Virus record (IMG/VR): IMGVR_UViG_3300014204_000116
Span: 64,001 to 128,000 of that record
Source of the DNA: a virus
Taxonomy: Duplodnaviria; Caudoviricetes
DNA: 64,000 nt
Strand: one strand, 5' to 3'
This document shows, in pieces, positions 741 through 59,600 of this stretch; within the stretch, counting starts at the first letter, position 1; every line of letters begins with the position of its first letter. The position numbers were made by a program, and so were the translations under genes. The notes under the pieces were generated by a model. The model worked only from the letters and a program-made list of their open reading frames with translations, searched no databases and was not told where the DNA came from.

Positions 741-747
741 GTAGTTA
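741..747 (+). promoter_or_regulatory. GTAGTTA element (candidate phage late promoter)
   Basis: 4 nt upstream of GTG 752; the same element precedes other structural/cargo-like genes. Confidence 0.55.
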
Positions 748-751
748 GTAC

Positions 752-1096
752 GTGATCGCGCGATACGTTGTTGAAGTTCTGCTTGAAGAACAGCCCAATT
801 TTAAACGGGCTGATCAGGTGTTTAACGGCGAAATACCGTTTGGGTTCATAGGGGTTGTAGACAATGGCCATGTCCGAGCATCTGTGGGTGGGCTTGAATA
901 CGTGGATCACTCTGAGCTGGGGTATACGCAGGAGACGGGCCGATGGCGCTTCGCGACCAATAGGCGTATCCCGGTTGTACTCTGGACAACTCCACCGACG
1001 ATGGCGCAGATATTCGAGGTCGAGGAGTGGCTAAAGAAGAAGGGCTACGAGGTAGCCAGTCATACACAAGATTTCAACAAATGGCGCGGCTTTTGA
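752..1096 (+). CDS. Small putative head-associated protein
   Basis: N-terminus MIARYVVEVLLEE carries the shared VVxxLLxE motif; GTAGTTA upstream. Confidence 0.7.
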   Translation: MIARYVVEVLLEEQPNFKRADQVFNGEIPFGFIGVVDNGHVRASVGGLEYVDHSELGYTQETGRWRFATNRRIPVVLWTTPPTMAQIFEVEEWLKKKGYEVASHTQDFNKWRGF

Positions 1097-1108
1097 GTTC
1101 TATACACT

Positions 1109-4100
1109 ATGCTCGATCCGAAGAAGAAGGTGGATAATTTGATAGGGCTGGTGAGTGGAACAAGTGCGTCCGCACAGCCTACCTCTTCGCTTTATCAGGC
1201 AATCCATGTGGAGCCGAGTAAAGAGCCCGGCTATGTGGTAACAGCTTCTCCTCTCCCTCCGAATGATCCATTGGCCTTCATAGGCTGTGTCGATACGGAT
1301 ACCCTGGGAACTAATCCCATCGTTGACAATGCAGATGGCAAGGCCTGGTATGTGGATTACTACCGCATGCTGGAAGCTTACATAAATTCTTCAGATTGGG
1401 CACTGGCTGATGGAAAGAACTGGCGCGCTCTGGCTGCTACTCCAAGGGCTTTACAGTCCATGTTTTCTTCACCCCGGCAGGCAGCTATGGCTTCTCTGGG
1501 TGAGCCCATGGTTCAACGGCGCATCATCCGTTATGGCCTGGCTAATGAATCAGACTTGGCTGAGCGCATTGAAGATGCCGTATCGTGGGAACGGAGGCTG
1601 CATGTCATCTCGCAAGCACTGGCACGATCTGGATGGAAGCCAGGCAGGATAGGACTGCATGCCGGAACAGATACCGTATTCGCCATCGGAGAATGTGGCG
1701 GAGAAATCCCTAGCAAGGTTATGGCTATTGTCCATACAGCCTTAGGCGAAGCAGGCCTTGTGACTGAGGATCTCCGCGTAGCCCGGCGAGGGACATCTTC
1801 TGGCGGTCCATGGCAGGCCAGCTTTAGTCTGTTACATGAGGAGGATGATGACTTTGAAGATATCCGCCCCGAGGATATCGCTACTCCGGCCATCGAGCAG
1901 CATCCAGGCATGAAGTCTGCCAACTTAGCGCATTCAATTGCACGTTCATTAAAGACTCGCGTACCGGCATTCTCATCTCTCACCCTGGATACAACGTCGT
2001 TTATTCGGGATAAAAGAGGATGGCCGATGCTAAGGTTCTTTGTGTCAGTATGGGAAAAGTGGCCGATGTGGGGATCTGATGTCAAACCAGGAGAGTCTCC
2101 GGTTGTGACTTACTATAGCACAGAGGACATTATCAAAGCCATAAAAGATACATGCGCTGAACTTGGGCTAGTGATGTATCCATATCCTCATCAGGATGTC
2201 CAGGTAATAGATGGCATCTCTATAGAGAAGCATGTGCATCATTACTCAATTGTGTTCCTAACCCATGGAGTTGAGTATCTATCCAAGTCCCCTCTTTACC
2301 AAATTGGAGAGTCTAAGTCTCCGGTTAAAGATACCGAGGGATCACTGGATCATCAGTATCTCAGTAAAGTTAGGGATGTCCTCGAAAAAGATGCAAGCTG
2401 GAAGATGTTGATCGCATCGGTTCGCCCTACAGAGTATCCCCTCAAAGAGAGTATCCTGATTCGTGCAACTCTTAAACCTCGCTATCCCATGTGCGAAAGA
2501 GAGGCATCAGAATGCGTAGAGTCTATCCTTAAAGATGCGAATCTTTGCCCAAAAGTTATCTTTTGCCGTATGCAGGAGGATGGCAACTACGGTGTGTCCT
2601 GGAGGATGAAGTCACATGATCACGATAAAGATCGCCGGGAGATTATCATCTGTGAGTCTGGGATAAATCCCGCCGATGCTCCTCTGCTGCAAGATGACCA
2701 GGATGCGCTGGGAGACCTATCCAAGTTTAAGCGCCTTGTTGGGATGGTTATGTCCAATGCTCCACGGGATATGGAACTTTCGCAGGCTACGAGCAGGCCT
2801 ACATGTGATCTGAGCCGAGCATCTGAGTTTACGGCCCGGATTGAAACTCAGCATGTGGACGTGACATCCATCAGCCGTTTCATCCTGGACTCCATGGACA
2901 TGCTGAACATGCACCCGGTGCATGCACCCAATCCATTCTCAAGTATCTCCTACAACGGGTATCAAGTATCTGTGCGCATCCCTTACACCCGAGATGCGAT
3001 GGCTCGAAAAACTTTAAGATACGATGCGGATAACGGGGCATCTATCGATGATAAGTTTCAAGTCTCCGAGGCAGATGAGTCTGGCTTAGATCCTTCAGAT
3101 GTAGAATGGGCTCGGCATACGCTATCGAAGGTTGATCCGTGGTGGAATGATCGGCGAAGGGTATTAGACATTTCGACTGAGTTGCATAATGCGGGATTTG
3201 ATGGAGATGTTACACTCTTTGTCCAGCCCAGGGAATACAGCGCCAGATCCTATACCCCATTGTTTGGAACTTTTATCGTTCATCTAAGGGCGCTTAATCC
3301 CGAGGAGGTAAAGGATCGGAAGGATGTATGTGCCAGGGTGAATTCCATATTTCAAAAGTTCTTCGACATCGACATCCAGCCCTACAGCATACGGGAGCAG
3401 TACGAGGGCAAGTGGAAGCACTCCTCACGGGAGGATAGGCGTTCCCACATAGGATGGTATACTATCTTGATCGGCAGTGTAACTCTTCGTAACACTCCCA
3501 AGAAGGGAAGTTTTTCTCCTGAAACCATCACCATCGCCATTGGTGAGTCCGAAGATATACAACCCTCCGAGTTATGGAGATCTTTCACTTGGGGATGGAA
3601 AGTAAAGCATGTAGAATCAGGCCCCATGTGGTATAATCGGGGATTCTATGTCTATAGAGGCGCTTACTGGACTCCTTACGTTGATAGTGTCTACTACGGC
3701 CCGTCTGCAATTGGCATCCAGCGCTTTATCAATTACATGGAATGGCTGGAAGCTACTTGGCAGCCGGTGGGTAAGGAAGCCCCTTATGACTGGCTTGTGC
3801 GGGCATCCAAATTGAAGAAAAGGGAGGAGTTCGAGCGGCTGAATCCTCCGAAGGCTGAAGATATCCTGGGAGAGAGTGCTGAAATAGATCCGGCTGATCT
3901 GTGGAAATCTCATATCGCCGGATGGAGAATAAAGCAGGCATCCTCCGAGGAGAGTAGTGTAGCGCTAACGGGATACTACATCTACAAGGGAGATTCCTTT
4001 AAAGACTCTGTCGGAAGTAGGCTGCGCTGGGGAAATGATCCAAAGGGCATAGAGCGCGCGGCCCATTACATGAACTGGCTGGAACGGGAATGGGAGCCCT

Positions 4101-5227
4101 ATGTCTATGGTGAATATATCCGTGTAAGCGACTGGCTGGATATAGCAAGAGTCAAAGGCAAGGAAAAGGAGTACGTTAAACTCTTTCCCGAGGCTGCCAC
4201 GCCCGATCCGATGCAAGAGGATACCCCCGAAGAAAAGATAGATCCCTGGGAGTTGCTCTACTACACAGATCCCAGTGTGCAAGAGCGCGCGATGCTGTCG
4301 AGCCTGGCTGCCAAGATAAAGTCGATGGGCTACACGGGCGGGCTAAGCTCGGACATGATCGGGAGTGGTGGAGTAGTAGAACTCTACCTGCACACAGGCG
4401 TCTACTGGGATAAGGTCAATTATCCCGACATTGCAAAGCAAGAGGATGCCCTCCTTAAAGAACGTGCAGAAGGATTGAATAAAGCCGTAGTGGATCTTCT
4501 GAGAAAGTATCGCTACGAAGTGGATACTCTTACTGCCACTCAAGGCCACGACTTCAACTGGGCCACCGACAATCTTGTCAAAACCGGATGGGGCACCGAT
4601 CTATACGCCCCTAAAGAGGATAACGACTCATACATCGAGATTATACTAACGGGATACGTCCTATTCAGACGTCCCGATTACCGAGGGCCGTACAGCGCCA
4701 AAAGCTTCCGGTCTAAGGATAAGAAGATGACCATCACGATCCCCGAGGCCCTGGAAAACCATCCCCTCGACCTGACAATAGAAAGTATGATCCAGGACAA
4801 CTCCAACGAAGAGATGGGCGTAGACATGAGAGATATCTACAACCAAGCCTTCAGCCAAAGCCTGGCCGCAACCAAAGCCCCTCTCAAGAAGATGGCCGAC
4901 CATCTCAAAGGACTAGGATATACCGGCACCATCCGAATAGTTCCCTCCCTATTCGATAGGCCCAACAATCTGCATACGTTCATCCTCATCCCCAAAAACG
5001 TAGCCCCCAGTATGACGCCAATCATACAGAGCGAGGAAGATGTTGATGCCGCAATAGAAGCAGCAGGTTACCAGGACTACGCCAAGAAAGAAGCCCCAGG
5101 CAATAAGTATTACACCATCTTCGATAGTTACTCCTATGCCCGCAAAGGTGTAGAGGCCCTCTACCTCAAAGCACAATTACCTATCCTGGGGCCTAGACCT
5201 CTCTATACCGTGGAATACTCCTTCTGA
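1109..5227 (+). CDS. Large modular protein (1372 aa), putative protease-processed head polyprotein
   Basis: Recurrent acidic module heads (IGESEDIQPSELW, LGESAEIDPADLW, DESGLDPSDVEW, EEKIDPWELL, CESGINPAD); tandem duplicated module at ~3540-4190. Confidence 0.75.
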   Translation: MLDPKKKVDNLIGLVSGTSASAQPTSSLYQAIHVEPSKEPGYVVTASPLPPNDPLAFIGCVDTDTLGTNPIVDNADGKAWYVDYYRMLEAYINSSDWALADGKNWRALAATPRALQSMFSSPRQAAMASLGEPMVQRRIIRYGLANESDLAERIEDAVSWERRLHVISQALARSGWKPGRIGLHAGTDTVFAIGECGGEIPSKVMAIVHTALGEAGLVTEDLRVARRGTSSGGPWQASFSLLHEEDDDFEDIRPEDIATPAIEQHPGMKSANLAHSIARSLKTRVPAFSSLTLDTTSFIRDKRGWPMLRFFVSVWEKWPMWGSDVKPGESPVVTYYSTEDIIKAIKDTCAELGLVMYPYPHQDVQVIDGISIEKHVHHYSIVFLTHGVEYLSKSPLYQIGESKSPVKDTEGSLDHQYLSKVRDVLEKDASWKMLIASVRPTEYPLKESILIRATLKPRYPMCEREASECVESILKDANLCPKVIFCRMQEDGNYGVSWRMKSHDHDKDRREIIICESGINPADAPLLQDDQDALGDLSKFKRLVGMVMSNAPRDMELSQATSRPTCDLSRASEFTARIETQHVDVTSISRFILDSMDMLNMHPVHAPNPFSSISYNGYQVSVRIPYTRDAMARKTLRYDADNGASIDDKFQVSEADESGLDPSDVEWARHTLSKVDPWWNDRRRVLDISTELHNAGFDGDVTLFVQPREYSARSYTPLFGTFIVHLRALNPEEVKDRKDVCARVNSIFQKFFDIDIQPYSIREQYEGKWKHSSREDRRSHIGWYTILIGSVTLRNTPKKGSFSPETITIAIGESEDIQPSELWRSFTWGWKVKHVESGPMWYNRGFYVYRGAYWTPYVDSVYYGPSAIGIQRFINYMEWLEATWQPVGKEAPYDWLVRASKLKKREEFERLNPPKAEDILGESAEIDPADLWKSHIAGWRIKQASSEESSVALTGYYIYKGDSFKDSVGSRLRWGNDPKGIERAAHYMNWLEREWEPYVYGEYIRVSDWLDIARVKGKEKEYVKLFPEAATPDPMQEDTPEEKIDPWELLYYTDPSVQERAMLSSLAAKIKSMGYTGGLSSDMIGSGGVVELYLHTGVYWDKVNYPDIAKQEDALLKERAEGLNKAVVDLLRKYRYEVDTLTATQGHDFNWATDNLVKTGWGTDLYAPKEDNDSYIEIILTGYVLFRRPDYRGPYSAKSFRSKDKKMTITIPEALENHPLDLTIESMIQDNSNEEMGVDMRDIYNQAFSQSLAATKAPLKKMADHLKGLGYTGTIRIVPSLFDRPNNLHTFILIPKNVAPSMTPIIQSEEDVDAAIEAAGYQDYAKKEAPGNKYYTIFDSYSYARKGVEALYLKAQLPILGPRPLYTVEYSF

Positions 5228-10812: not shown

Positions 10813-11454
10813 ATGAGTGCAAAACTCCAAGCTCTAGACCCTGCCGAATTTGTCCAGTCCTATACCGCAGACAAGTACAAGATGGAGATTGGCGCTTGGG
10901 ACAATGCTACCACTCCGGGGGATCTTCTCTACGCCCTTAAATCTCTCAAAGCTCCCTGCGCAGCCTACGTAGAAATGGGAATAATCATTTCCGAAGAAGC
11001 TCTTTCACAATTTGAGGGTGTGTATCCCAATGATCCTCGGCCTCGACAGGCAGTAGACGCTGCTAAAGCCTGGCTTAAGAATAGAACAGCGGCCAATGAG
11101 GGTGCTCTTAATAAGGCTACCGATAATGCCTACGCTGCTTATAACGCTAAGCTCCAGGCTGCCAGTATCACTTCTGAAACTAGCCGTGCTTGCAAGGGCA
11201 AGGAGGTTCAATTTCGTGCGGCTCAGGCTGCTGCACAGGCCGCTTCTGCTGCACAGGCCGCTTGTAGTGCTTCTTGCCACATATGTGATGCTGATGCCGA
11301 GATTGACTGTGCTTCTTGTGCAGCTTCGGCGACTGCTGGGGTAGCTAACGATGTTGCCCACTATGCCGTCAGGGCAGGTCGCCCCGTTAAAGATGTGATG
11401 GACATCATCAAGGAAGTAGGGCATAGATACTACACGTTTTTGAAGCAGAGCTAA
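10813..11454 (+). CDS. Imm5-like domain protein, array copy 3
   Basis: LDPAEFVQSY head; PNDPRPRQAVDAAKAWL. Confidence 0.88.
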   Translation: MSAKLQALDPAEFVQSYTADKYKMEIGAWDNATTPGDLLYALKSLKAPCAAYVEMGIIISEEALSQFEGVYPNDPRPRQAVDAAKAWLKNRTAANEGALNKATDNAYAAYNAKLQAASITSETSRACKGKEVQFRAAQAAAQAASAAQAACSASCHICDADAEIDCASCAASATAGVANDVAHYAVRAGRPVKDVMDIIKEVGHRYYTFLKQS

Positions 11455-12006
11455 ATGAACACAACAACCGAGATCACAGTCCCAGCCGAATTTGTTCGAG
11501 CTTTCACGGCGGACAAATACAGGAAAGAGATTGTGACTTGGCATACATCTTCTGCCCCGAGTGATCTTGTCATGGTTCTTAGAAACCTCAAAGCTCCCAG
11601 GGCAGCCTTCGTAGAGATTGGCGTAGCCCTGGCCGAGGGAGTTCTTCCAAAATACGAGAGCAGATATCCAGCAGATCTCCGCCCTCGGAAGACAATAGAC
11701 GCTGCAAAAGCTTGGCTTAGAGATGGATCAACAGCCAATGCTCAGGTTGCTGACAGGGAGACCCAGACTTTCTATATCATCACAAAAGTGGCCGACGCTA
11801 TTAGCTCAAATAATGCTACCATTAGCGCAAATAATGCTGCTTATGCGGCTGCTTGCGCTGCCTGGGTTGTCACTGCTGCCCTCTCTAATGTTTCCGTCGT
11901 TATGGCTGTCACTTACGCCATGAATGCAGGTCTCTCTCACCAATGCGTAATTGATATCATCAAAGAAGTGGGTCAGCGATACTTCGCATTCCTAAAGCAA
12001 GCCTGA
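11455..12006 (+). CDS. Imm5-like domain protein, array copy 4
   Basis: PADLRPRKTIDAAKAWL; abuts the previous gene (TAAATG). Confidence 0.88.
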   Translation: MNTTTEITVPAEFVRAFTADKYRKEIVTWHTSSAPSDLVMVLRNLKAPRAAFVEIGVALAEGVLPKYESRYPADLRPRKTIDAAKAWLRDGSTANAQVADRETQTFYIITKVADAISSNNATISANNAAYAAACAAWVVTAALSNVSVVMAVTYAMNAGLSHQCVIDIIKEVGQRYFAFLKQA

Positions 12007-12555
12007 ATGAATGCAATAGCCGAATCTCTAGATCCAGCCGAGTTTGTCCGATCCTACACCACGGACAAATATGGGGAGGAGATTGCAGCCTGGAGCGGGG
12101 CTACTCTTCCCGAGGATCTCATCGACGTCCTTAAGGATCTTAAGGTTCCCCAGATAGCTTATGCAGAGATCAGTGCAGCGCTGTCAGAAGCAGTTCTCCC
12201 CATATTTGAAAAGGAGCATCCCGATGATCCCGAACCTCGGCAAGCCATAGGGATTATCAAATCCTGGCTTAAGGATCAAACAGAAGCCAATGTTCGAGCT
12301 GCTAAGCAACTTTGGGTTTTTCACGCTGCCAATACCTCTTCCGATGCTGCTGTCGATGATCCTGCTGGGGCTGCTGCTTATGCGGCCCATACTGTTCTTT
12401 GTCATGCTATTCTTTCCATCGCTTCTCCTTTTCCTGCTCTATCTGCCCAACGGGCTGCTTTTACAGCCAGCCGGGCGGGCCTCCCTAACCGGCGCGCGAT
12501 GAGCCTGGTAAAAGAAGTGGGCCACAAGTATTTTGCATTTTTGAGCAAGGGCTGA
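12007..12555 (+). CDS. Imm5-like domain protein, array copy 5
   Basis: LDPAEFVRSY; PDDPEPRQAIGIIKSWL. Confidence 0.88.
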   Translation: MNAIAESLDPAEFVRSYTTDKYGEEIAAWSGATLPEDLIDVLKDLKVPQIAYAEISAALSEAVLPIFEKEHPDDPEPRQAIGIIKSWLKDQTEANVRAAKQLWVFHAANTSSDAAVDDPAGAAAYAAHTVLCHAILSIASPFPALSAQRAAFTASRAGLPNRRAMSLVKEVGHKYFAFLSKG

Positions 12556-13071
12556 ATGAGCACGACACTCCAAATTGTAGACCCCGCCGAGTTCGTGAAA
12601 GACTTCACGACGGCCAAGTATGCGCGGGAAATCAAGACCTGGAATGATCCCTCTTCTACCCCTAAGAATCTTGCCCATATCCTTCTCGATCTTAAAGCCC
12701 CCACGGCAGCCCTCGCAGAAATTGGTCTAACGTTGGCAGAAGAAGTTCTTCCGGTGTTTGAGAAGAAGTGCCCTAGCGACCCCCGGCCCAGGAAAGCTGT
12801 AAAGGCGGGAAAAGCCTGGCTTAAAGACAGAACGGAAGCTAATTACAATGCTGCTCAAATCAGCTCTTGGGCTGCTGCCGATGCTGCTCGGGCTGCCAGT
12901 GATGCTAATTCAGAAGATGCTTCCAATGCCGCCTGGACTGCCACTCACGCCCTTCACAACATCGAAGTTGCAGTTTTTTACGCGCGCTACGCCGGGCTTC
13001 CCAATCAACGTGCATTCGGCATCATCAAGAAGGTGGGCCACGATTACTTCGCATTCCTGAGTGAGAACTGA
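12556..13071 (+). CDS. Imm5-like domain protein, array copy 6
   Basis: VDPAEFVKDF; PSDPRPRKAVKAGKAWL. Confidence 0.88.
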   Translation: MSTTLQIVDPAEFVKDFTTAKYAREIKTWNDPSSTPKNLAHILLDLKAPTAALAEIGLTLAEEVLPVFEKKCPSDPRPRKAVKAGKAWLKDRTEANYNAAQISSWAAADAARAASDANSEDASNAAWTATHALHNIEVAVFYARYAGLPNQRAFGIIKKVGHDYFAFLSEN

Positions 13072-13749
13072 ATGAGTGCAACAACCCGAACTGTAGACCC
13101 TGCTGAATTCGTGAAGTCCTTCATGGAGGACAAGTATAGCAGGGAGATCAAGAACTGGAACGAAGTTTACGCGCCAGAGAGTCTCATCTTTATTCTCAAA
13201 GATCTCAAAGCTCCCCATGTAATCTACGCAGAAATTAGCGTAGCCTTGGCGGAAGAAGTCCTTCCGAGATATGAAGAGAAATACCCCAAAGATCTCCGTC
13301 CCCGACAGGCGATAAAATTCGCCAGAGATTGGCTCAACGATAGGACAATGAACAACGCTGCTTGTGCTGCTTGTGCTGCTGCCGCTGCTGCCGCGCGCGA
13401 GGCTGTTGATGCTGCCAATAGCGATATGTGGGCTGTTAATTCTGATGATTCGAATGATTCTGATGATTTTACGGTCGTTACCCCACAGGCCGTTAATGCT
13501 GCTCGGGCCGCGTATGATGCGGTTTCTTCTGCTGCCTGGGCGGGTGCCCACGTTACTCGGGCAGCTTCCAACATCAATTATGCTTCTCACTACGCGGGCC
13601 ATGCCGCCGATAATGCCGCCAGAGCAGGTCTTTCTGATCAGCGCATAATGGACATCATTAGAGTAATAGGGCATAGGTATTATACGTTTTTGAAGCAAAA
13701 CTATCGACATTACACTTTTGAAGTAAAGACGAATGAGCACAATGACTGA
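13072..13749 (+). CDS. Imm5-like domain protein, array copy 7
   Basis: PKDLRPRQAIKFARDWL; longest variable core, with an NSDDSNDSDD insert. Confidence 0.88.
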   Translation: MSATTRTVDPAEFVKSFMEDKYSREIKNWNEVYAPESLIFILKDLKAPHVIYAEISVALAEEVLPRYEEKYPKDLRPRQAIKFARDWLNDRTMNNAACAACAAAAAAAREAVDAANSDMWAVNSDDSNDSDDFTVVTPQAVNAARAAYDAVSSAAWAGAHVTRAASNINYASHYAGHAADNAARAGLSDQRIMDIIRVIGHRYYTFLKQNYRHYTFEVKTNEHND

Positions 13750-14305
13750 GGCTTTAGACCCGGCTACGTTTGTCCAGTCTTACCTGGTGGACAAATATAA
13801 GGCTGAGATTGTAGCCTGGAACGAGGCTCCCTCTCCAAACGCTTTTATCGATATTCTTCGGGATCTCAATGCTTCCAAAGCTGCTTTTGTAGAGATCTGC
13901 GTGGCGTTGGCTGAGGAAGTTCTTCCGGTGTTCGAAAAGGAATTTCCCAAAGATCTCCGCCCTCGGAAAGCAATAGAAGCAGCCAAAGCCTGGCTTAAAG
14001 ATCGAACAGCCGCTAATACCCGAGCTGCTGCTGTTGCTTCTGATGCCGCTTCCAATGCTGCTGTTAATTCTACCGCTATTAAACTTGTTTCTGTTCTTGA
14101 AACTTGGTCTGCTTCTGTCGTTGTCGGTGCTGCTGCTTGGGCTGCCAGCAGAGCTGCTAGTGCTGCTGCTGATACTTCTTATGCTTCTGACTTCACATTT
14201 TGCACCGCTGACGATGCCACTAGAGCAGGTCTTCCTGGGCATCGTATAATGGACATCTTCAGGGAAGTGGGCTACAAGTATTATGCGTTTTTGAAGCCAA
14301 GATGA
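13733..14305 (+). CDS. Imm5-like domain protein, array copy 8
   Basis: EALDPATFVQSY; PKDLRPRKAIEAAKAWL. Confidence 0.88.
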   Translation: MSTMTEALDPATFVQSYLVDKYKAEIVAWNEAPSPNAFIDILRDLNASKAAFVEICVALAEEVLPVFEKEFPKDLRPRKAIEAAKAWLKDRTAANTRAAAVASDAASNAAVNSTAIKLVSVLETWSASVVVGAAAWAASRAASAAADTSYASDFTFCTADDATRAGLPGHRIMDIFREVGYKYYAFLKPR

Positions 14306-14851
14306 ATGAGCACAACAACCATAGATCCCTCCGAGTTCGTTAAGTCTTACACTGCGGAAAGGTATAAGGCTGAGATTAAGGCCTGGAACAAAGCCATTAC
14401 TCCAAGTGCTCTCATCAACTTCCTTAGAGCCTTCAAAGCCCCTAAGGCAGTCTTTGTAGAGATCGGCATAGCGCTTGCAGAAGAAGTTCTGCAAGAATTT
14501 GAGAAGAGATGCCCCAAAGATCGCTGTCCTCATCGAGCAATAAAAGCTGCCAAAGCTTGGCTTAACAATAGAACGGAAGCTAATGCCCAAGCGGCCCGCG
14601 TTAGGGCTACGGAGGTTTACGAAATTTCTTGGGCTTGTGCTACTTCTAATGACGCTGTTAGCAGTACTTATGCCGCTCGTACTGCGGCTTGGGCTGCCCA
14701 CGCTGCTGAAGCGGAGACTCCTGTTGATGCCGCGTACAATACTGACAACGCGCTCGCTTATGCCCTGGCGGCAGATCTTCCTCCCGTACGCGCGCTTGAC
14801 ATCATCAAGGAAGTAGGATATAGATATTATACATTTTTGAAACAGAATTGA
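14306..14851 (+). CDS. Imm5-like domain protein, array copy 9
   Basis: IDPSEFVKSY; PKDRCPHRAIKAAKAWL. Confidence 0.88.
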   Translation: MSTTTIDPSEFVKSYTAERYKAEIKAWNKAITPSALINFLRAFKAPKAVFVEIGIALAEEVLQEFEKRCPKDRCPHRAIKAAKAWLNNRTEANAQAARVRATEVYEISWACATSNDAVSSTYAARTAAWAAHAAEAETPVDAAYNTDNALAYALAADLPPVRALDIIKEVGYRYYTFLKQN

Positions 14852-14865
14852 TCGAATATGGCCGG

Positions 14866-15405
14866 ATGAGCACGACAACCGAAATTGTAGACCCCGCTGA
14901 ATTTGTCCAGTCCTTTACTGCGGCCAAATATCAGAGAGTGGTAGACGCCTGGAGCAATACTCTTTCTCCAGGATGTTTTATCAACGCTTTGGCATCCGCC
15001 AAAGCCCCCAAGGCAGTCTATGTAGAGATCTGCCTGGCGTTCGCAGACGAAATTCTGTCGGTGTTTGAAGAGAAGCACCCTGAAGACTTCCGCCCTCGAA
15101 GGGCAGTAGAAGCAGCCAGGGCCTGGCTTGAGAATAGAACCACTGCTAACGAAGAAGCTGCGCGCAAAGCTGCTGGGGAGGCTTCTCTCGTGGCTTTTAT
15201 CTATTGCGACGACAACACCACTCGTGCTGCTACCTGGGCTACCTGGGCTACCGCTAATACCGCTGGGGCCACGTTTTCTTACGCTGCCTATAATGCTGTC
15301 CAAGCCGTTATCTACGCTATTGGAGCCGGTATTCCTCAACAGCATCTCATGGATATCATTCGGGATGTGGTCCATAGATACTACGCATTTTTGAGCCTGT
15401 GTTAA
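14866..15405 (+). CDS. Imm5-like domain protein, array copy 10
   Basis: Start MSTTTEIVDPAEFV chosen by analogy with its paralogues; PEDFRPRRAVEAARAWL. Confidence 0.88.
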   Translation: MSTTTEIVDPAEFVQSFTAAKYQRVVDAWSNTLSPGCFINALASAKAPKAVYVEICLAFADEILSVFEEKHPEDFRPRRAVEAARAWLENRTTANEEAARKAAGEASLVAFIYCDDNTTRAATWATWATANTAGATFSYAAYNAVQAVIYAIGAGIPQQHLMDIIRDVVHRYYAFLSLC

Positions 15406-15996
15406 ATGAGTGCGACCGCTGAAACTTTAGATCCTGCTACATTCGTTCAGTCTTATATTGTGACCAAGTATAAGAAGGAGATCGAAGCCTGGGGCAAATC
15501 TGCCATTCCAGAAGAACTCATTAGCATTCTTAAAGACCTCAGGGCTCCCAAGGCAGCTTTTGCAGAGATCAGCATAATTCTTGCAGAAGGCATTCTTCCT
15601 GCAATTGAATTAAGGCATCCTGGAGATCTCCGCCCACGTAGGGCGTTAGAAGCTGCAAAAGTCTACTTTAATAAAGATACCGAAGATAATGCTAAAGCCG
15701 TTACCGAAGCTATCGACCACGCATTTAAAGCCGAAGCCGAAGCTACCGGCCATGCTGAATCTGCTGCTGCTGCCTACGCTATTTGTTATGCTGCTCGTGC
15801 CTCTTGTGCCCGCAATATTGAGGAAGCGTCTAATAATGCTGCTTGGACTGCTTATTATGCCACGGCAACATTCCGCATAAAAGCATCCTATGACGCTGTT
15901 GAGGCGACTTCTGCGGTCCTTAACCAGCAGCATATACTGGATGTCATAAGGAAAGTGGGCCGCAAACATTTTGCATTCTTAAACAAGGCCAAATGA
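15406..15996 (+). CDS. Imm5-like domain protein, array copy 11
   Basis: ETLDPATFVQSY; PGDLRPRRALEAAK. Confidence 0.88.
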   Translation: MSATAETLDPATFVQSYIVTKYKKEIEAWGKSAIPEELISILKDLRAPKAAFAEISIILAEGILPAIELRHPGDLRPRRALEAAKVYFNKDTEDNAKAVTEAIDHAFKAEAEATGHAESAAAAYAICYAARASCARNIEEASNNAAWTAYYATATFRIKASYDAVEATSAVLNQQHILDVIRKVGRKHFAFLNKAK

Positions 15997-16631
15997 GCAC
16001 GCTAACCGAAACTTTAAATCCTGCCGAGTTCGTTCAGTCCTATACCCTGCAAAAATATCGGAGGGAGATCGAGGCCTGGGGAAAAGCCGCTACTCCAGGT
16101 GATCTCATCAATGTTCTCAGAATCATCGGCGCTCCGAAAGCCACCTATGTGGAGATCAGCATAGCTCTTGCCGAAGAAGTTCTCCCTGTGTTTGAAAAGG
16201 AATGTCCTCAAGATCCCCGTCCTCGGCAAGCCGTAGAAGCGGCCAAAGCTTGGCTTGTGGGCGGGACACAGGCTAATGTTGAGGCTTCTGCAAAAAGTGC
16301 TGAGGGGGCTTTTAATGCTGTTTGGAATATTAACGCGCTTATGGCAGGGGAGGCCAGGTATGCCGGTCGTGTTGCCTACTGCGCTGCTTATGCTGCTGCT
16401 TATCCTGTGAGTAATGCTGATCAAGCTGCTGTCACTTTCGCTATTGCCTACGCTGTTACCACTTCCGTAGGATATGCCTCTTACACCGCTGCCTGCGCTG
16501 ATCAATCTGCCCAGGCGGCTTATAGTGCTGCTTATTATGCCGTTGAAGCAGGCTTTTCTAATCGTCTTGCGGTGGATATCGTTAGAAGGGTGGGCTGTAG
16601 GTATTTTGCATTCTTGAGGAAAACCAAATGA
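15993..16631 (+). CDS. Imm5-like domain protein, array copy 12
   Basis: ETLNPAEFVQSY; PQDPRPRQAVEAAKAWL. Confidence 0.88.
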   Translation: MSTLTETLNPAEFVQSYTLQKYRREIEAWGKAATPGDLINVLRIIGAPKATYVEISIALAEEVLPVFEKECPQDPRPRQAVEAAKAWLVGGTQANVEASAKSAEGAFNAVWNINALMAGEARYAGRVAYCAAYAAAYPVSNADQAAVTFAIAYAVTTSVGYASYTAACADQSAQAAYSAAYYAVEAGFSNRLAVDIVRRVGCRYFAFLRKTK

Positions 16632-17215
16632 GCCCGACAGCCAAAATTGTAGACCCTGCCGAGTTCGTTCAATCCTTTACTGCGACCAAGTATAAGGAGG
16701 GGATCGAGGTTTGGCGTGATGCTGAGACGCCAGCGGATCTTATTTTTGCTCTTCGAACCCTTAAGGCCCCCAAGGCAGCCTATGCCGAAATTAGTGCAGC
16801 CCTTGCCGAAGAAGTTCTACCGGCATTCGAAAAGAAGTACCCTTGTGATCTTCGGCCTCGGAAAGCCGTAGAGGCTGCCAAAGCTTGGATTAAGAATAGA
16901 ACAGCGGCTAATGCCAGGGCGGCAGAAGAAGCTTCCAACGATGCGTGGCATGCTGCCGATTATGCTACCGACGCTACCTTAATGATGGTTGCCAATGATG
17001 GTGCTGCTGATGCAGCTTCTGCTGCCTACAACGCCGCTGCTGTTGCTTCTGCCGCCTACCCTATTTTCAATGCTTGCCATGTCGAGGGTGATTACACCAT
17101 CTATGCCATTTACGGCACCGTTGACGCCGCCAAGACGGGCATACCCAATCAGCGCATACTGGACACGATCAAAGAAGTGGGCTATAGATATTTTTCGTTC
17201 TTGAAGCCGAGCTGA
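16628..17215 (+). CDS. Imm5-like domain protein, array copy 13
   Basis: VDPAEFVQSF; PCDLRPRKAVEAAKAWI. Confidence 0.88.
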   Translation: MSPTAKIVDPAEFVQSFTATKYKEGIEVWRDAETPADLIFALRTLKAPKAAYAEISAALAEEVLPAFEKKYPCDLRPRKAVEAAKAWIKNRTAANARAAEEASNDAWHAADYATDATLMMVANDGAADAASAAYNAAAVASAAYPIFNACHVEGDYTIYAIYGTVDAAKTGIPNQRILDTIKEVGYRYFSFLKPS

Positions 17216-54728: not shown

Positions 54729-54733
54729 ACTTG

Positions 54734-54994
54734 ATGTCACTGACAGAATACATTGTAGACAGTTTGCTACAAGAATCTCCTAATCTTGAGACGCTGAAGA
54801 AGCACAAGGTAGCCCTAACGCCGGACGAGAAGCGGAGTTTTAAGGAGTGCAGCCAGGATCAGTCAGCCACGGCCATGAAATCGGTCGTCAACGGCAAGAC
54901 CTGGTACGCATGCTATACGCACCGAGCTTGCCAGGTTAGCCCTACCCTCAAGGGCGCTCTAAAGGCTTATCCAGAAATTGCTGCTACCGGCTAG
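54734..54994 (+). CDS. Small putative head protein
   Basis: MSLTEYIVDSLLQES motif; GTAGTTA at 54721-54727. Confidence 0.65.
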   Translation: MSLTEYIVDSLLQESPNLETLKKHKVALTPDEKRSFKECSQDQSATAMKSVVNGKTWYACYTHRACQVSPTLKGALKAYPEIAATG

Positions 54995-58000: not shown

Positions 58001-59313
58001 TAACAAATTTGCTGGATGAAGTCTTAGACCCAGCCGAGTTTGTTCAGTCCTACGCTGTGGCCAAGTACCAGAAGGAGATCGAGACTTGGAACAAAGCTGC
58101 CACCCCGTTGGATTTTATCCACACCCTTAAAGCCCTTAAGGCTCCTAAGGCAGCTTTTGTAGAAATTAGCCTAGCGTGTGCAGAAAAAGTTCTTCCAGAA
58201 TTCGAAGAAAGCTTTCCTAAGGATCTCCGGCCCCGCAAGGCTGTAGAGGCTGTAAAAGCTTGGCTTAAGAACAGAACGGGGGCTAATACCCAAGTAGCTG
58301 CTAATGCTGCTCGGGCTGCCTATGCGGCTGCCCATGCTACTTGGGCTGTTAATAGCACTAAGGCTGCTCGGATTGCTCGGGCTGCTAATGCTGCTGCTCG
58401 GGCTGCTAGTGCTGCTGCCGCTGCTGGTGCTATTAGTTATGACATTTCTGGGGATACTGCTGCGGTTGCTACCTACGCTGTTGAAGCGGGCCTCCCTAGC
58501 CAGCGCGTAATGGATATCATTAAGGAAGTGGGCCATAAATACTTTTCGTTCTTAGGCCAGGGCACCGCGAGAGGGATGGCCGAAGCAATCGTAGCAAATA
58601 TGTTGGGCGAATCGGAGGGAACCGATATTCCATCCCCGGAGGAAGAGCCGCTCATTGCCGACATTTCGCCGGAGGACATTGCGCTAAGGTCTGGTATTTT
58701 GGACCGGTATGTCCAGGTAGGTGGTGACTTTGGAGATCCGTGGGTTTATGGGGGCACTTGGTACAGCGCTTACGTGGCTAAGTCTAAAAGTCGGTGGGAT
58801 TGTATCTACCACATAGACGGCATGGAAGGCGAAGGCTTGTCAGATTATGATGCCGGGAGTAAGGCCGTTAAAAAGGCGTTAGAAGAGCCCCAATATGCTG
58901 CTTTGATAGCAAAACGGGCAGAAGAGCTTTTGCCGGATAGACTCCGTTCTCAGGGCTACGGCAAATATCCCGATGCTGATCCTGCTGAAGAGGCGGACAC
59001 GCTGAAATGGTGCCAGCGAGAAGTATTAGACGATGCGAAGAACGAGATTGCAGATAAACTAGCGGATGAGATGAACAAGAACCGCACACTTGCTGTTTAT
59101 CGTGTATCTGACGATGATTTATTTGACAATAACCCGAAGCGAATTTCTGAAGTTGTGCAGTTCCTGGGCATAACGCTGGAGGAGTGGGAGGAGATGCCTA
59201 CTGTAGATAAGATAGTTGCATACGCTGACAACTACGGTTGGTACAATCTGGATCATGACCCGGTAAGGATGACAAAAGACGATCTGATCGCTAGGATAAA
59301 GGTGGAGTTGTGA
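55009..59313 (+). CDS. Modular polyprotein (1434 aa) with 4 Imm5-like units between unrelated modules
   Basis: Units start at ~56302, 56866, 57433 and 58018; the N-terminal part has GYILPNGSMLDLSGG...DHRQV; GTAGTTA at 54998-55004. Confidence 0.88.
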   Translation: MTTLRTQHVPPDTGQASDTPGTAQGVARALLDSSPELTSAEIGDMAASAGIGKVVAQIADADPPEAADIRSPRNWFITKWDVMYGGQKIGYITRSRDNPLQFRPFTTINPASKSCNFSRLRDALAWVMVHRVKNWAASERLAQHATVEESHTSNESLILVHEAEEIQMSDIWKSANKPQLRKDDKGKDVLHIPHLAAITPDQWEKISGIMRGKGYDSRGAADASRAVQSMLRRAGESGEARVLKHEDWVDTIAKVIGLKASSQELKAGDRAATARKVFARAVKSWGLTNNPDVAGYILPNGSMLDLSGGSGRRAYDHRQVGSFLEPSEQGRGATDCMHEFMDLGAIRWMPEGPGMDIRVPPTKAQYAQIARIKDEAHGQLYLDVYSPNYGKAYRGYGPSHTSQRVVNDIVSFYKTGKLGHMPEVQQFHGMGESEESEFFKSFTSSKYAKEIEFWNIATTPMLLISTLRDLKVPAAAFVEISVALTEEVLPKFEEAYSENLQPRKAIEAAKAWLKDRTAANAEAAETADYAAAVAADHVASYSSSASYVASAASYTARAAHTAHNSQRASYDAYAINAIFYYTAKAGLSATRMVDIIKRVGHQYFAFLPLSKSSKVAEAGETLDPAEFVKSYHADKYGSKIRDWSLVSEPVALLRILESLNAPKSTYVEINIALAEEVLPVFEKKRPKDLRPRKAIEAAKAWFKDRTSANAQIVLDVSQGAWKATNACTSSPEHAAFAIYYATVSVTAETVSPSGAWTAIDAAHYTVADVINAGIPKQRVADIIREVGRSYFGFLPQEGHEKAEEPAVGEALDPSEFVKSYTTAKYQKAIHDWGTATTPGDLNLVLKSLKAPKAAFVEVAIAFAEEVLPMVEKVLPNDLRPRQAIEAAKVWLKDRTEANAQAANEASDEALAASADAATESYTAWNAVQTAARAANMAWVASTDDDAGMVYKYASYINYYTTRAGLSNQRAMDIFREIGGRYFSFLAQSPSEGMAEVIVTNLLDEVLDPAEFVQSYAVAKYQKEIETWNKAATPLDFIHTLKALKAPKAAFVEISLACAEKVLPEFEESFPKDLRPRKAVEAVKAWLKNRTGANTQVAANAARAAYAAAHATWAVNSTKAARIARAANAAARAASAAAAAGAISYDISGDTAAVATYAVEAGLPSQRVMDIIKEVGHKYFSFLGQGTARGMAEAIVANMLGESEGTDIPSPEEEPLIADISPEDIALRSGILDRYVQVGGDFGDPWVYGGTWYSAYVAKSKSRWDCIYHIDGMEGEGLSDYDAGSKAVKKALEEPQYAALIAKRAEELLPDRLRSQGYGKYPDADPAEEADTLKWCQREVLDDAKNEIADKLADEMNKNRTLAVYRVSDDDLFDNNPKRISEVVQFLGITLEEWEEMPTVDKIVAYADNYGWYNLDHDPVRMTKDDLIARIKVEL

Positions 59314-59336
59314 ACAATTTGATGACTGAAAAAATT

Positions 59337-59600
59337 ATGATACACGCGGGACAAGTGGTGAATACACTCCTGGAGCAGGGTGGTGATGCAGAGGTTGAGT
59401 ATGATACTGTCGATGTGGACTCCATGCCACATACGGCCTGGATGGTTCGGGCCATAGGCTCATCGCCTACGCAATACGTAGCCAGGGACGTGGCTCATAC
59501 GCCCGAACTGGCACGCCAGAGGGCGCACGAGAAGGCCCGGTCGTTAGGCATGACAATTACGCGCGAGATAGATCGCTCTAAAAGTTCACCACGCAGTTGA
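59337..59600 (+). CDS. Small putative head protein
   Basis: MIHAGQVVNTLLEQ motif (alternative start 59310). Confidence 0.6.
   Translation: MIHAGQVVNTLLEQGGDAEVEYDTVDVDSMPHTAWMVRAIGSSPTQYVARDVAHTPELARQRAHEKARSLGMTITREIDRSKSSPRS

What the first reader, a model, noticed from the sequence alone, without database searches (positions are those of the whole stretch)
1109..5227. Second polyprotein-like ORF: unrelated modules with the same acidic D-P-x-(D/E) head
Seen in sequence: module heads HEEDDDFEDIRPEDI, CESGINPAD, DESGLDPSDVEW, IGESEDIQPSELWRS, LGESAEIDPADLWKS and QEDTPEEKIDPWELL parallel the EALDPAEFV head of the Imm5-like units and HEAEEIQMSDIWKS / ADISPEDI in the 55009 protein. Two adjacent ~110-aa modules (~3540-4190) are clear paralogues (GW(K/R)..K, G(F/Y)Y.Y.G, GI.R...YM.WLE..W.P, DWL..A). 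Three other modules share (L/I)...G(F/Y).G. Inference: the DPxE head is a general module leader independent of the cargo, so the phage seems to use a common cassette format for many payloads.
Basis: partly seen in the sequence, partly recalled or inferred. Interest (0 to 1): 0.7.

Follow-up and report, generated by a model that had tools for sequence, protein, structure and literature searches.

The report
Modular phage protein with Glu-Ser joints
A 1372-residue orphan protein of an uncultured giant phage is a string of nine small domains whose joints all carry the same glutamate-serine motif and often an acidic leader helix, which fits (but does not prove) a protein that is loaded into the phage head and cut into pieces there.

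Summary
ORF 1109-5227 (1372 aa) carries the quoted acidic heads at the stated places. The strict head motif occurs 5 times here against once in 44,466 aa of the remaining genome. Residues 811-919 and 920-1035 are true paralogues (36% identity).

The reading needs correction:
- There are nine modules, not seven.
- Three of them (M3, M6, M7) are diverged paralogues, so the modules are not all unrelated. Five segments have the same predicted alpha-beta-beta-alpha-beta-beta topology.
- The constant feature of the joints is not D-P-x-E. It is Glu followed by Ser/Gly/Ala, usually with Ile/Leu/Val at P3. This holds at 28 of 29 joints in four homologues and matches the L/I-x-E rule of T4-type head proteases. 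D-P-x-E is the N-cap of the next helix.

Four homologues exist among 1.8 billion protein representatives. All share the 244-aa N-terminal domain, but they differ in module number and order. No module was found as a separate gene.

Best model (about 0.45): a capsid-loaded cargo polyprotein cut at the joints. No protease gene, packaging or cutting is shown. The scan has reported the same theme before, in this genome and in other phages.

The parts
741..747 (+). GTAGTTA motif 11 nt before the GTG start of gene 752. It is the only such motif upstream of the 752-1109 gene pair.
   Evidence: the motif occurs 33 times in the record, about 22 of them 8-17 nt before a start codon. The marked genes include structural genes and the giant ORFs 22685 and 55009.
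752..1096 (+). 114-aa gene with the phage-wide N-terminal tag IARYVVEVLLEE. It is probably co-transcribed with the ORF. Its stop lies 12 nt before the ATG of the ORF, in the same frame.
1109..1840 (+). NTD, aa 1-244: the conserved hallmark domain of the family. It has an N-terminal amphipathic helix (KKVDNLIG), and its C-terminal half is alpha-beta-beta-alpha-beta-beta. It ends at LLHE|E.
   Evidence: five homologues; z 26-53; pLDDT 70-80; tag core V..LIG.
1841..2311 (+). M1a, aa 245-401, with head EDDDFEDIRPEDI. It ends at QIGE|S.
   Evidence: Present in all four long homologues (z 8-24). H254-263, then a-b-b-a-b-b.
2312..2656 (+). M1b, aa 402-516. It has no D-P-x-E head and ends at IICE|S.
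   Evidence: Homologous to P0005 M1b (z 9.2). PilO/GspM-like fold: Z 8.6 and 8.3.
2657..3079 (+). M2, aa 517-657, with head SGINPAD. It ends at EADE|S.
   Evidence: Homologous to P0004 M2 (z 22.8); a-b-b-a-b-b.
3080..3547 (+). M3, aa 658-813, with head SGLDPSDVEW and the motif LHNAGFDG. It ends at AIGE|S.
   Evidence: Four homologues. Related to R modules (hhalign E 1.5e-4).
3548..3874 (+). GWa, aa 814-922, with head SEDIQPSELWRS. It ends at ILGE|S.
   Evidence: Paralogue of GWb. GW modules also occur in P0005 and P0006.
3875..4219 (+). GWb, aa 923-1037, with head SAEIDPADLWKS. It ends at PMQE|D.
4220..4783 (+). M6, aa 1038-1225, with head DTPEEKIDPWELL and the motif IKSMGYTG. It ends at LTIE|S.
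   Evidence: Best non-family hit of the M3 HMM, ahead of all decoys. A BLAST match runs from GWb into M6 and aligns with GW plus M3 of P0005.
4784..5227 (+). M7, aa 1226-1372 plus the stop codon. It has a degenerate head (NEEMGVDMRDIY) and the motif LKGLGYTG.
   Evidence: R-type module: z 4.7-5.9 against three R modules; best non-family hit of the R HMM.

Best explanation
ORF 1109-5227 encodes a 155-kDa cargo polyprotein of an uncultured myovirus of about 226 kb with a T4-type portal. In this model the conserved 244-aa N-terminal domain, with its amphipathic N-terminal helix, brings the chain into the assembling head. A Glu-specific head-maturation protease then cuts the eight inter-domain linkers after (I/L/V)-x-E, just before Ser/Gly/Ala. 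This releases eight small folded alpha/beta proteins of 12-21 kDa.

Shown here: the modular anatomy, the conserved joints, the variable module content among homologues, and the shared leader.

Inferred only: late expression, packaging, cutting, and any role of the pieces after ejection.
For: 1. Joints. All 8 joints of the ORF, and 28 of 29 joints in the four long homologues, have Glu at P1. P1' is Ser 15, Gly 6, Ala 3. P3 is Ile/Val/Leu in 17 of 29.
2. Motif placement. [ILV]xE[SGA] occurs 28 times in these four proteins (shuffle mean 14.3), and 15 of the 28 sit exactly at the 29 joints.
3. Conservation. The Glu is kept between orthologous joints at 25-30% identity while its flanks vary.
4. Structure. 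The joints lie in pLDDT<50 coil between the last strand of one domain and the first helix of the next: 243-268, 387-412, 502-530, 655-681 and 812 onward.
5. Module shuffling. Module number and order differ between homologues, but the joint is kept.
6. Known proteases. The rule matches T4 gp21 (L/I-X-E, PMC9026906) and SPN3US gp245 (A-X-E with Ser preferred at P1', PMC10052503). Giant phages also remove N-terminal propeptides of 111-254 residues (PMC10052503, PMC5694885), which is the size of the N-terminal domain (NTD).
7. Same format elsewhere in the genome. The E|small joint followed by a leader occurs in ORFs 22685 and 55009, where it directly follows the phage-wide tag ..IVxxLLxE. That tag core is enriched 3.9-fold in the first 20 residues of the phage's proteins, and this ORF is among the carriers.
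8. Expression context. The ORF starts 12 nt after a tag-bearing gene whose start carries GTAGTTA, a motif shared with structural genes.
9. Head type. The record holds a Portal_T4 gene (65 bits).
Against: - No head protease or major capsid gene was found in the 159.9-kb record, by Pfam S77, S78 and Gp23 or by the T4 gp21 and gp23 proteins. The record is only 72% complete, so this is inconclusive.
- There are no proteomic data.
- The ORF's own N-terminal tag lacks the Glu that homologues P0004-P0006 have at residue 9-10.
- Three joints have a non-canonical P3 (ADE, MQE, TIE).
- I placed the joints by eye on a Glu, so Glu at P1 is partly by construction. Only P3, P1' and the position within the linkers are independent of that choice.
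- All modules are acidic to neutral (pI 4.8-7.0), unlike the T4 internal proteins, which I recall as basic.
- No module exists as a separate gene.
- The model of the C-terminal third failed (pLDDT 33).
Confidence: 0.45

Rival explanations
1. The protein is an uncut beads-on-a-string protein: a tandem array of one old alpha-beta-beta-alpha-beta-beta interaction domain (PilO/GspM-like), plus two GW inserts, that works as one long chain. It could be a structural, scaffold-like or host-binding protein. On this view the Glu-Ser joint and the D-P-x-E helix cap are linker and N-cap features inherited through tandem duplication, not signals.
For: - The C-terminal half of the NTD, M1a, M1b, M2 and M3 all have the same predicted topology.
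- M1b matches PilO, XcpY, EpsM and PulL, with Z 6.7-8.6 (PulM).
- M3, M6, M7 and the R modules are one sequence superfamily.
- No module is found as a separate gene.
- D/Q/R-P starts the first helix of the module in the model: H254, H819, and H665 three residues after P662.
Against: - The same joint and leader also occur on modules with other folds: the GW modules and the all-helical Imm5-like units.
- Glu at P1, an aliphatic P3 and a small P1' are kept in linkers that are otherwise unconserved and predicted to be disordered.
- Module order is shuffled, yet the joint survives.
- The M1a/M1b joint keeps I-G-E-S without any helix-cap motif.
Confidence: 0.3
2. The protein is a repertoire of small binder or inhibitor proteins, like the Imm5-like arrays of the same phage, but it is not packaged. 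The chain would be cut in the cytoplasm by another protease or left whole, and the modules would neutralise host defence or toxin proteins during infection.
For: - It shares the joint and leader format with the Imm5-like polyproteins of the same genome.
- Module content varies between relatives, as expected for conflict genes.
- The modules are small non-enzymatic domains with no Pfam, PHROG or PDB sequence match.
Against: - No target, no defence-related domain and no toxin neighbour was found.
- The N-terminal domain and M1a are fixed in all long homologues, which is unlike a pure repertoire.
- No self-protease domain or conserved catalytic residues are present: the invariant columns of the NTD hold no Ser, His, Asp or Cys.
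Confidence: 0.15
3. The long frame is not a real gene, or the motif recurrence is chance.
For: There is no Pfam or PHROG hit, and no Shine-Dalgarno sequence before the ATG.
Against: - Four homologues exist, with E down to 3.7e-32, and their N-termini align from Met 1.
- The N-terminal domain folds with pLDDT 70-80.
- The motif enrichment has P of 2e-10.
Confidence: 0.01

Closest known systems
Phage T4 internal proteins IPI-III and Alt: a capsid-targeting sequence removed by the head protease gp21, MEROPS S77 (PMC9026906, PMC3012670, PMC5694885)
   Same: - Joints of the form (I/L/V)-x-E before a small residue.
- A short amphipathic N-terminal helix of the kind found on about a dozen proteins of this phage.
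- A T4-type portal in the genome.
- Cargo that differs between related phages.
   Different: - T4 cargo proteins are single proteins with a 10-20-residue propeptide. Here one chain carries eight candidate internal sites and a 244-aa conserved N-terminal domain.
- The ORF's own tag lacks the terminal Glu.
- There is no sequence homology to any T4 protein.
- The protease was not found in the incomplete record.
Processed head, inner-body and ejection proteins of the giant phages phiKZ, 201phi2-1 and SPN3US (PMC10052503, PMC5694885, PMC9026906)
   Same: - Cleavage after Glu with few other determinants, and Ser preferred at P1'.
- Long N-terminal propeptides (111-254 aa) and several sites per substrate.
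- Paralogous families of head-internal proteins.
   Different: - Their motif has Ser or Ala at P3. Here P3 is mostly Ile, Val or Leu.
- Multiple cuts there mainly shred propeptides; they do not release a series of folded modules.
- There is no sequence match to any cultured phage.
Polyvalent proteins of phages and conjugative elements (Iyer et al. 2017, PMC5512222)
   Same: They are giant mosaic proteins predicted to be packaged and delivered with the DNA. Their domain content is variable, and processing has been proposed.
   Different: Polyvalent proteins are defined by several recognisable effector or enzyme domains, often with their own metallopeptidase. This ORF has no Pfam domain at all, and it has a uniform short joint motif.
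Periplasmic domains of PilO, PilN, GspM (EpsM, PulM) and GspL (XcpY, PulL, EpsL)
   Same: The predicted alpha-beta-beta-alpha-beta-beta (permuted ferredoxin-like) fold of M1b: Z 8.6 with rmsd 3.3 over 87 residues, and Z 8.3 with rmsd 3.1 over 86 residues. PulM matches with TM 0.55.
   Different: - Sequence identity is 6-9%.
- The ORF has no membrane anchor or coiled coil.
- Z near 8 is in the range of a merely common arrangement.
- It occurs as a tandem array in a phage protein.
This is a shared fold only, not membership.
The Imm5-like polyproteins of the same genome (ORFs 22685 and 55009)
   Same: The same joint (E before a small residue), a related leader (LDPAEFVKSY against IQPSELWRSF and IDPADLWKSH), and the same GTAGTTA start context for the operon.
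   Different: The cargo fold and family differ, with no Imm5 Pfam match. The linkers of this ORF lack the full IVxxLLxE tag and keep only its last residues (Phi-x-E). The Imm5 units also exist as free genes, whereas these modules do not.

Membership tests
T4-type capsid-targeted, gp21-processed cargo (IPI-III, Alt) | N-terminal capsid-targeting propeptide of about 10-20 aa that ends in L/I-x-E | tested here: inconclusive
   The ORF starts MLDPKKKVDNLIGL, predicted as a helix (4-15). It shares the core V..LIG with the phage-wide tag but has Asn and Leu where Glu is expected. Homologues P0004-P0006 do have (I/V)-x-E at residues 7-10.
T4-type capsid-targeted, gp21-processed cargo (IPI-III, Alt) | L/I-x-E cleavage sites in accessible regions | tested here: met
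   Five of the 8 joints are I/L-x-E (LHE, IGE, ICE, IGE, LGE). All lie in low-pLDDT coil where a model exists. This shows that the motif is present, not that it is cut.
T4-type capsid-targeted, gp21-processed cargo (IPI-III, Alt) | The genome encodes an S77-type head protease | tested here: inconclusive
   PF03420 and the T4 gp21 protein find nothing in the record. However, the record is 72% complete and also lacks a detectable major capsid gene. The Portal_T4 family is present.
T4-type capsid-targeted, gp21-processed cargo (IPI-III, Alt) | The protein is present in the mature head in cleaved form | not testable with these tools
   The phage is uncultured and no proteome is available.
Polyvalent proteins (Iyer et al. 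2017) | Several distinct recognisable effector or enzyme domains in one giant protein | tested here: not met
   No Pfam family at E up to 1, no PHROG family at E up to 0.01, and no PDB sequence match at E up to 1.
phiKZ/SPN3US-type processed head proteins | S/A-x-E motif and homology to the conserved set of giant-phage head proteins | tested here: not met
   Only one joint of the ORF has Ala at P3 (ADE). tblastn against 50,697 phage records finds no match.
PilO / GspM / GspL periplasmic domain | Alpha-beta-beta-alpha-beta-beta permuted ferredoxin-like fold | tested here: met
   DSSP topology of five modules. M1b matches PilO with Z 8.6 and 8.3. This is a fold resemblance at a middling Z.
PilO / GspM / GspL periplasmic domain | Sequence family membership | tested here: not met
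   There is no Pfam hit, and identity in the structural alignments is 6-9%. A membrane anchor and coiled coil were not tested.
Imm5 / Imm5_like (PF14423, PF21805) | Match to the Pfam models | tested here: not met
   No Pfam family at E up to 1. Only the first ~29 positions of the GW profile (the head) resemble Imm5 unit N-termini.

The most novel reading that the evidence does not exclude
The acidic leader that follows the cut site (E | S-x-Phi-D-P-x-E-Phi-W/Y-K/R-S) is a portable signal in its own right, not just a helix cap. Phages of this lineage would place it on cargo of unrelated folds, so that each piece released by the head protease starts with the same N-terminal helix. That helix could dock the piece in the head, let it pass through the tail, or act first in the host. 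This would be a second addressing layer beyond the T4-type capsid-targeting sequence. The five-member family of this ORF would then be a new class of head-delivered proteins built from PilO-like domains.
Probability: 0.15. Interest if true: 0.75.

Novelty: new variant of a known kind. Interest (0 to 1): 0.45.

Why it matters
If the joints are cut, one gene supplies eight or more ready-made small proteins to the capsid. The set of modules can then be changed by adding or removing cassettes without touching the loading or processing signals. This would extend the T4 rule of one tag per cargo protein to one tag for many cargo proteins. It would also give a simple sequence rule, (I/L/V)-x-E before Ser followed by a leader helix, for finding head cargo in uncultured giant phages.

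The protein family itself is new. It has five members among 1.8 billion representatives and no annotated domain. Its 244-aa N-terminal domain is a candidate loading module that could be tested directly.

If the joints are not cut, the finding is an ordinary, if rare, tandem-domain phage protein.

Tried and rejected
**Searches that found nothing**
- Pfam and PHROGs on the whole protein.
- PDB sequence profile search.
- Protein atlas, twice: no usable hit and no stored model.
- megablast and tblastn against cultured phages.
- Word-based protein search with the single protein and with the family alignment: only the query itself was found.
- Search for shorter proteins carrying the modules.

**Genomic context of the homologues could not be obtained**
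- Scans of viral contigs with the ORF, the alignment and P0006 found no relatives.
- Relatives of the tail sheath are only 8-13-kb contigs.

**Structure**
- The model of aa 923-1372 failed (pLDDT 33), so GWb, M6 and M7 have no model.
- GWa is below pLDDT 50 in the other model.
- Whole-chain Foldseek hits (large glutamate dehydrogenase, IgE, Mediator and others) have TM below 0.1 and were discarded.

**Ideas rejected or left open**
- Self-protease in the N-terminal domain: rejected, because the invariant columns hold no Ser, His, Asp or Cys.
- DNA-level conservation of the heads as recombination sites: rejected for this ORF. Beyond GAGTCTGG in two heads, the codons differ.
- T4 late promoter TATAAATA: present only at chance level.
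- Internal GTAGTTA starts inside the ORF: none.
- Read-through from gene 752 (same frame, one TGA): considered unlikely. All five homologues align from their own Met 1, and a shared frame has a 1 in 3 chance.
- A head protease or capsid gene near the portal: not found with Pfam or PHROGs.

Full report
**What is there**

The window is bases 64001-128000 of a 159,890-base IMG/VR virus record that is estimated to be 72% complete. The identical protein also lies on a 225,968-base contig. The phage is a myovirus:
- It has tail sheath, baseplate and portal genes.
- Its portal matches Portal_T4 at 65 bits, above the curated cut-off.
- It is far from any cultured phage: the sheath is 24-29% identical to those of T4-like cyanophages and jumbo Erwinia phages.

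ORF 1109-5227 is open and encodes 1372 aa, 155.5 kDa, pI 5.5. It has no Pfam, PHROG or PDB sequence match.

**The observation**

All six quoted heads are at the stated positions, and the parallels in the 55009 and 22685 proteins are real. The enrichment is strong:
- The loose motif [ILMV][DQRNES]Px[DE] occurs 9 times, against 0.71 expected from the rest of the genome (P 7e-8).
- The strict motif occurs 5 times, against 1 in 44,466 aa (P 2e-10).
- Apart from that one case, the strict motif is confined to the three giant ORFs and the Imm5-like gene array.
- A PSSM made only from Imm5 heads ranks the head at aa 815 as the best non-Imm5 position of 45,085.
- The first ~29 positions of a GW-module profile pick out Imm5 unit starts in ORFs 22685 and 55009 and in the array genes.

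The two ~110-aa modules are paralogues (z 21.6; 36% identity, E 6e-13). No other pair of modules in the ORF is significantly similar by pairwise alignment.

**A protein family**

A full HMMER scan of 1.84 billion representatives with aa 173-1372 found four relatives:

| Protein | Length | E-value |
|---|---|---|
| P0004 | 833 aa | 3.7e-32 |
| P0005 | 1734 aa | 4.8e-11 |
| P0006 | 987 aa | 3.7e-09 |
| P0007 | 248 aa | 1.6e-06 |

- Each is a singleton cluster from a different data source.
- All share the N-terminal 244 aa, aligned from Met 1. That fixes the start codon of the ORF.
- All four long members continue with M1a.

After M1a the architectures diverge:

| Protein | Module order |
|---|---|
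| P0004 | NTD-M1a-M2-M3-R |
| P0006 | NTD-M1a-GW-M3-R-R |
| P0005 | NTD-M1a-M1b-Mx-GW-M3-R x 6 |
| This ORF | NTD-M1a-M1b-M2-M3-GW-GW-M6-M7 |

No module occurs as a separate gene. The full scan returned only these multi-module proteins, and a search for shorter proteins found nothing. The one exception is P0007, which is the N-terminal domain alone and stops exactly at the NTD/M1a joint. It sits on a 955-base contig and cannot be checked.

**Are the modules unrelated?**

Partly not.
- A profile of the R modules, built only from P0005 and P0006, finds this ORF as its only hit in the genome (E 6.8e-4), with pieces in M3, M6 and M7.
- Against about 900 shuffled decoys, the four best hits of that profile outside its own family are all real modules: M7, M3 of two proteins, and M1b.
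- The best outside hit of the M3 profile is M6.
- hhalign gives M3 against R an E of 1.5e-4.

So the three modules that share (L/I)...G(F/Y).G are diverged paralogues. GW, M1a and M2 remain separate by sequence.

In the AlphaFold model of aa 1-922 (mean pLDDT 54; the NTD reaches 70-80), five segments each come out as helix-strand-strand-helix-strand-strand: the C-terminal half of the NTD, M1a, M1b, M2 and M3. M1b superposes on PilO (Z 8.6 and 8.3), XcpY, EpsM and PulL. PulM appears in Foldseek with TM 0.55. These Z values are middling, so I claim a shared simple fold, not family membership.

**The joints**

The proposed boundaries do not cut through predicted domains. Each lies in a pLDDT<50 coil segment between the last strand of one module and the first helix of the next:

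| Joint (aa) | Low-confidence coil segment |
|---|---|
| 244/245 | 243-268 |
| 401/402 | 387-412 |
| 516/517 | 502-530 |
| 657/658 | 655-681 |
| 813/814 | 812 onward |

I anchored all 29 joints of the four long proteins on the residue before the module start:
- P1 is Glu in 28.
- P1' is Ser 15, Gly 6, Ala 3.
- P3 is Ile 11, Val 4, Leu 2.

I placed the joints on a Glu by eye, so P1 is partly by construction. P3, P1' and the position in the linkers are not.

The four-residue pattern [ILV]xE[SGA] occurs 28 times in these proteins (shuffle mean 14.3), and 15 of the 28 are exactly at joints. The remaining 13 match the chance level.

D/Q/R-P-x-(D/E) follows the Glu by 2-9 residues. In the model it starts the first helix of the module or lies just before it: P254 with H254-263, P819 with H819-828, and P662 with H665-674. 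It is therefore a helix N-cap. It is missing at M1b, degenerate at M7, and absent from the M3 head of P0004.

In the relatives, the R modules start E-(S/G/A)-M-D-P-x-x-L-Y-(K/R)-(K/Q)-S. This is close to the GW heads (IQPSELWRS, IDPADLWKS) and the Imm5 heads (LDPAEFVKSY). The leader is thus longer than D-P-x-E, and it is shared by modules of different folds in at least three phages. For the Imm5-like family it is simply the start of the domain, and it is present in the free array genes as well.

**Mechanism**

T4 gp21 cuts after L/I-X-E (PMC9026906). The giant-phage proteases cut after S/A-X-E, with Ser preferred at P1' in SPN3US, and they remove propeptides of 111-254 residues (PMC10052503, PMC5694885).

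Several features fit that rule:
- The joints here match it.
- The phage-wide N-terminal tag ..(I/V)Vxx L(L/I)x E ends in the same way. Its core is enriched 3.9-fold in the first 20 residues of the phage's proteins, and this ORF is among the carriers.
- In ORFs 22685 and 55009 the full tag sits in the linkers directly before the E|x-LDP joint.
- The ORF begins 12 nt after a 114-aa gene that carries a full tag and has GTAGTTA 11 nt before its start.
- That 7-mer lies 8-17 nt before about 22 start codons, among them structural genes and the other two giant ORFs. This suggests common, probably late, regulation.

I therefore rank a capsid-loaded, protease-cut cargo polyprotein first, at about 0.45.

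Weak points:
- No protease or capsid gene is in the incomplete record.
- The ORF's own tag lacks Glu.
- The modules are acidic to neutral.
- Nothing shows packaging or cutting.

The main rival is an uncut tandem array of one old interaction domain, at about 0.3.

**Relation to earlier notes of this scan**

Earlier agents reached the same capsid-cargo reading for ORFs 22685 and 55009 and for the N-terminal tag in this genome. They also reached it for polyproteins with protease-like linkers in several other uncultured T4-type phages. I used those notes as leads only. They do not add independent evidence.

What this report adds:
- the protein family and its shuffled architecture;
- the corrected module map;
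- the finding that Glu followed by a small residue, rather than D-P-x-E, is the invariant;
- the shared predicted fold.

**Verdict**

The protein is a new family, and a new variant of a known kind: head cargo processed at Glu sites, or a polyvalent-like phage protein. Interest is moderate because the central step, cutting, is untested and because the same theme has already been noted repeatedly in this scan.

Noticed in passing
window 741, 22670, 54721, 54998, 62159 (-), 66532, 77665, 85524, 90937, and further sites in the record: The 7-mer GTAGTTA occurs 33 times in the 159.9-kb record. About 22 copies lie 8-17 nt before a start codon, with no room for a Shine-Dalgarno sequence. It may be the phage's own late promoter (-10 box of near-leaderless mRNAs) or an unusual initiation signal. 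It marks structural genes and the giant cargo-like ORFs. The T4 late box TATAAATA is at chance level.
   Followed up: partly
window 752-1108: Gene 752-1096 (114 aa, tag IARYVVEVLLEE) is in the same reading frame as ORF 1109, separated by one TGA and four codons. Read-through would give the giant protein a full tag. The homologues' N-termini argue that the ATG at 1109 is the normal start.
   Followed up: partly
G000:C1:46222-47997 (+), 17,778 bases before the window start: A 591-aa protein with an RNA-ligase-like region (phrog_755) holds the only strict head motif outside the giant ORFs and the array. It is SAGE|STPGIDPAEIARPF, near aa 485, and looks like another joint plus leader.
   Followed up: no
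protein P0006 (homologue, 987 aa), residues 980-987: The protein ends with an orphan head, ...VVTD|SMDPKARR, after its last module. It looks as if a further module had been lost just behind its leader.
   Followed up: no
protein P0007 (248 aa, on a 955-base contig): This homologue consists of the N-terminal domain only and stops exactly at the NTD/M1a joint. It may be a natural stand-alone form of the domain or an assembly artefact.
   Followed up: no
window 10813-17215: The free-standing Imm5-like array genes start M-x-x-x-x-E-x-LDPAEFV. They therefore carry a five-residue extension ending in Glu before the same leader that follows the joints in the polyproteins.
   Followed up: partly
window 54731-54994 and 59310-59600: Small tag-bearing genes flank the 55009 polyprotein, much as gene 752 precedes ORF 1109. 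Gene 54731 shares only the tag with gene 752 (BLASTP 7 of 16 residues). Gene 59310 gives no BLASTP alignment with gene 752, but it carries the tag core QVVNTLLEQ.
   Followed up: partly
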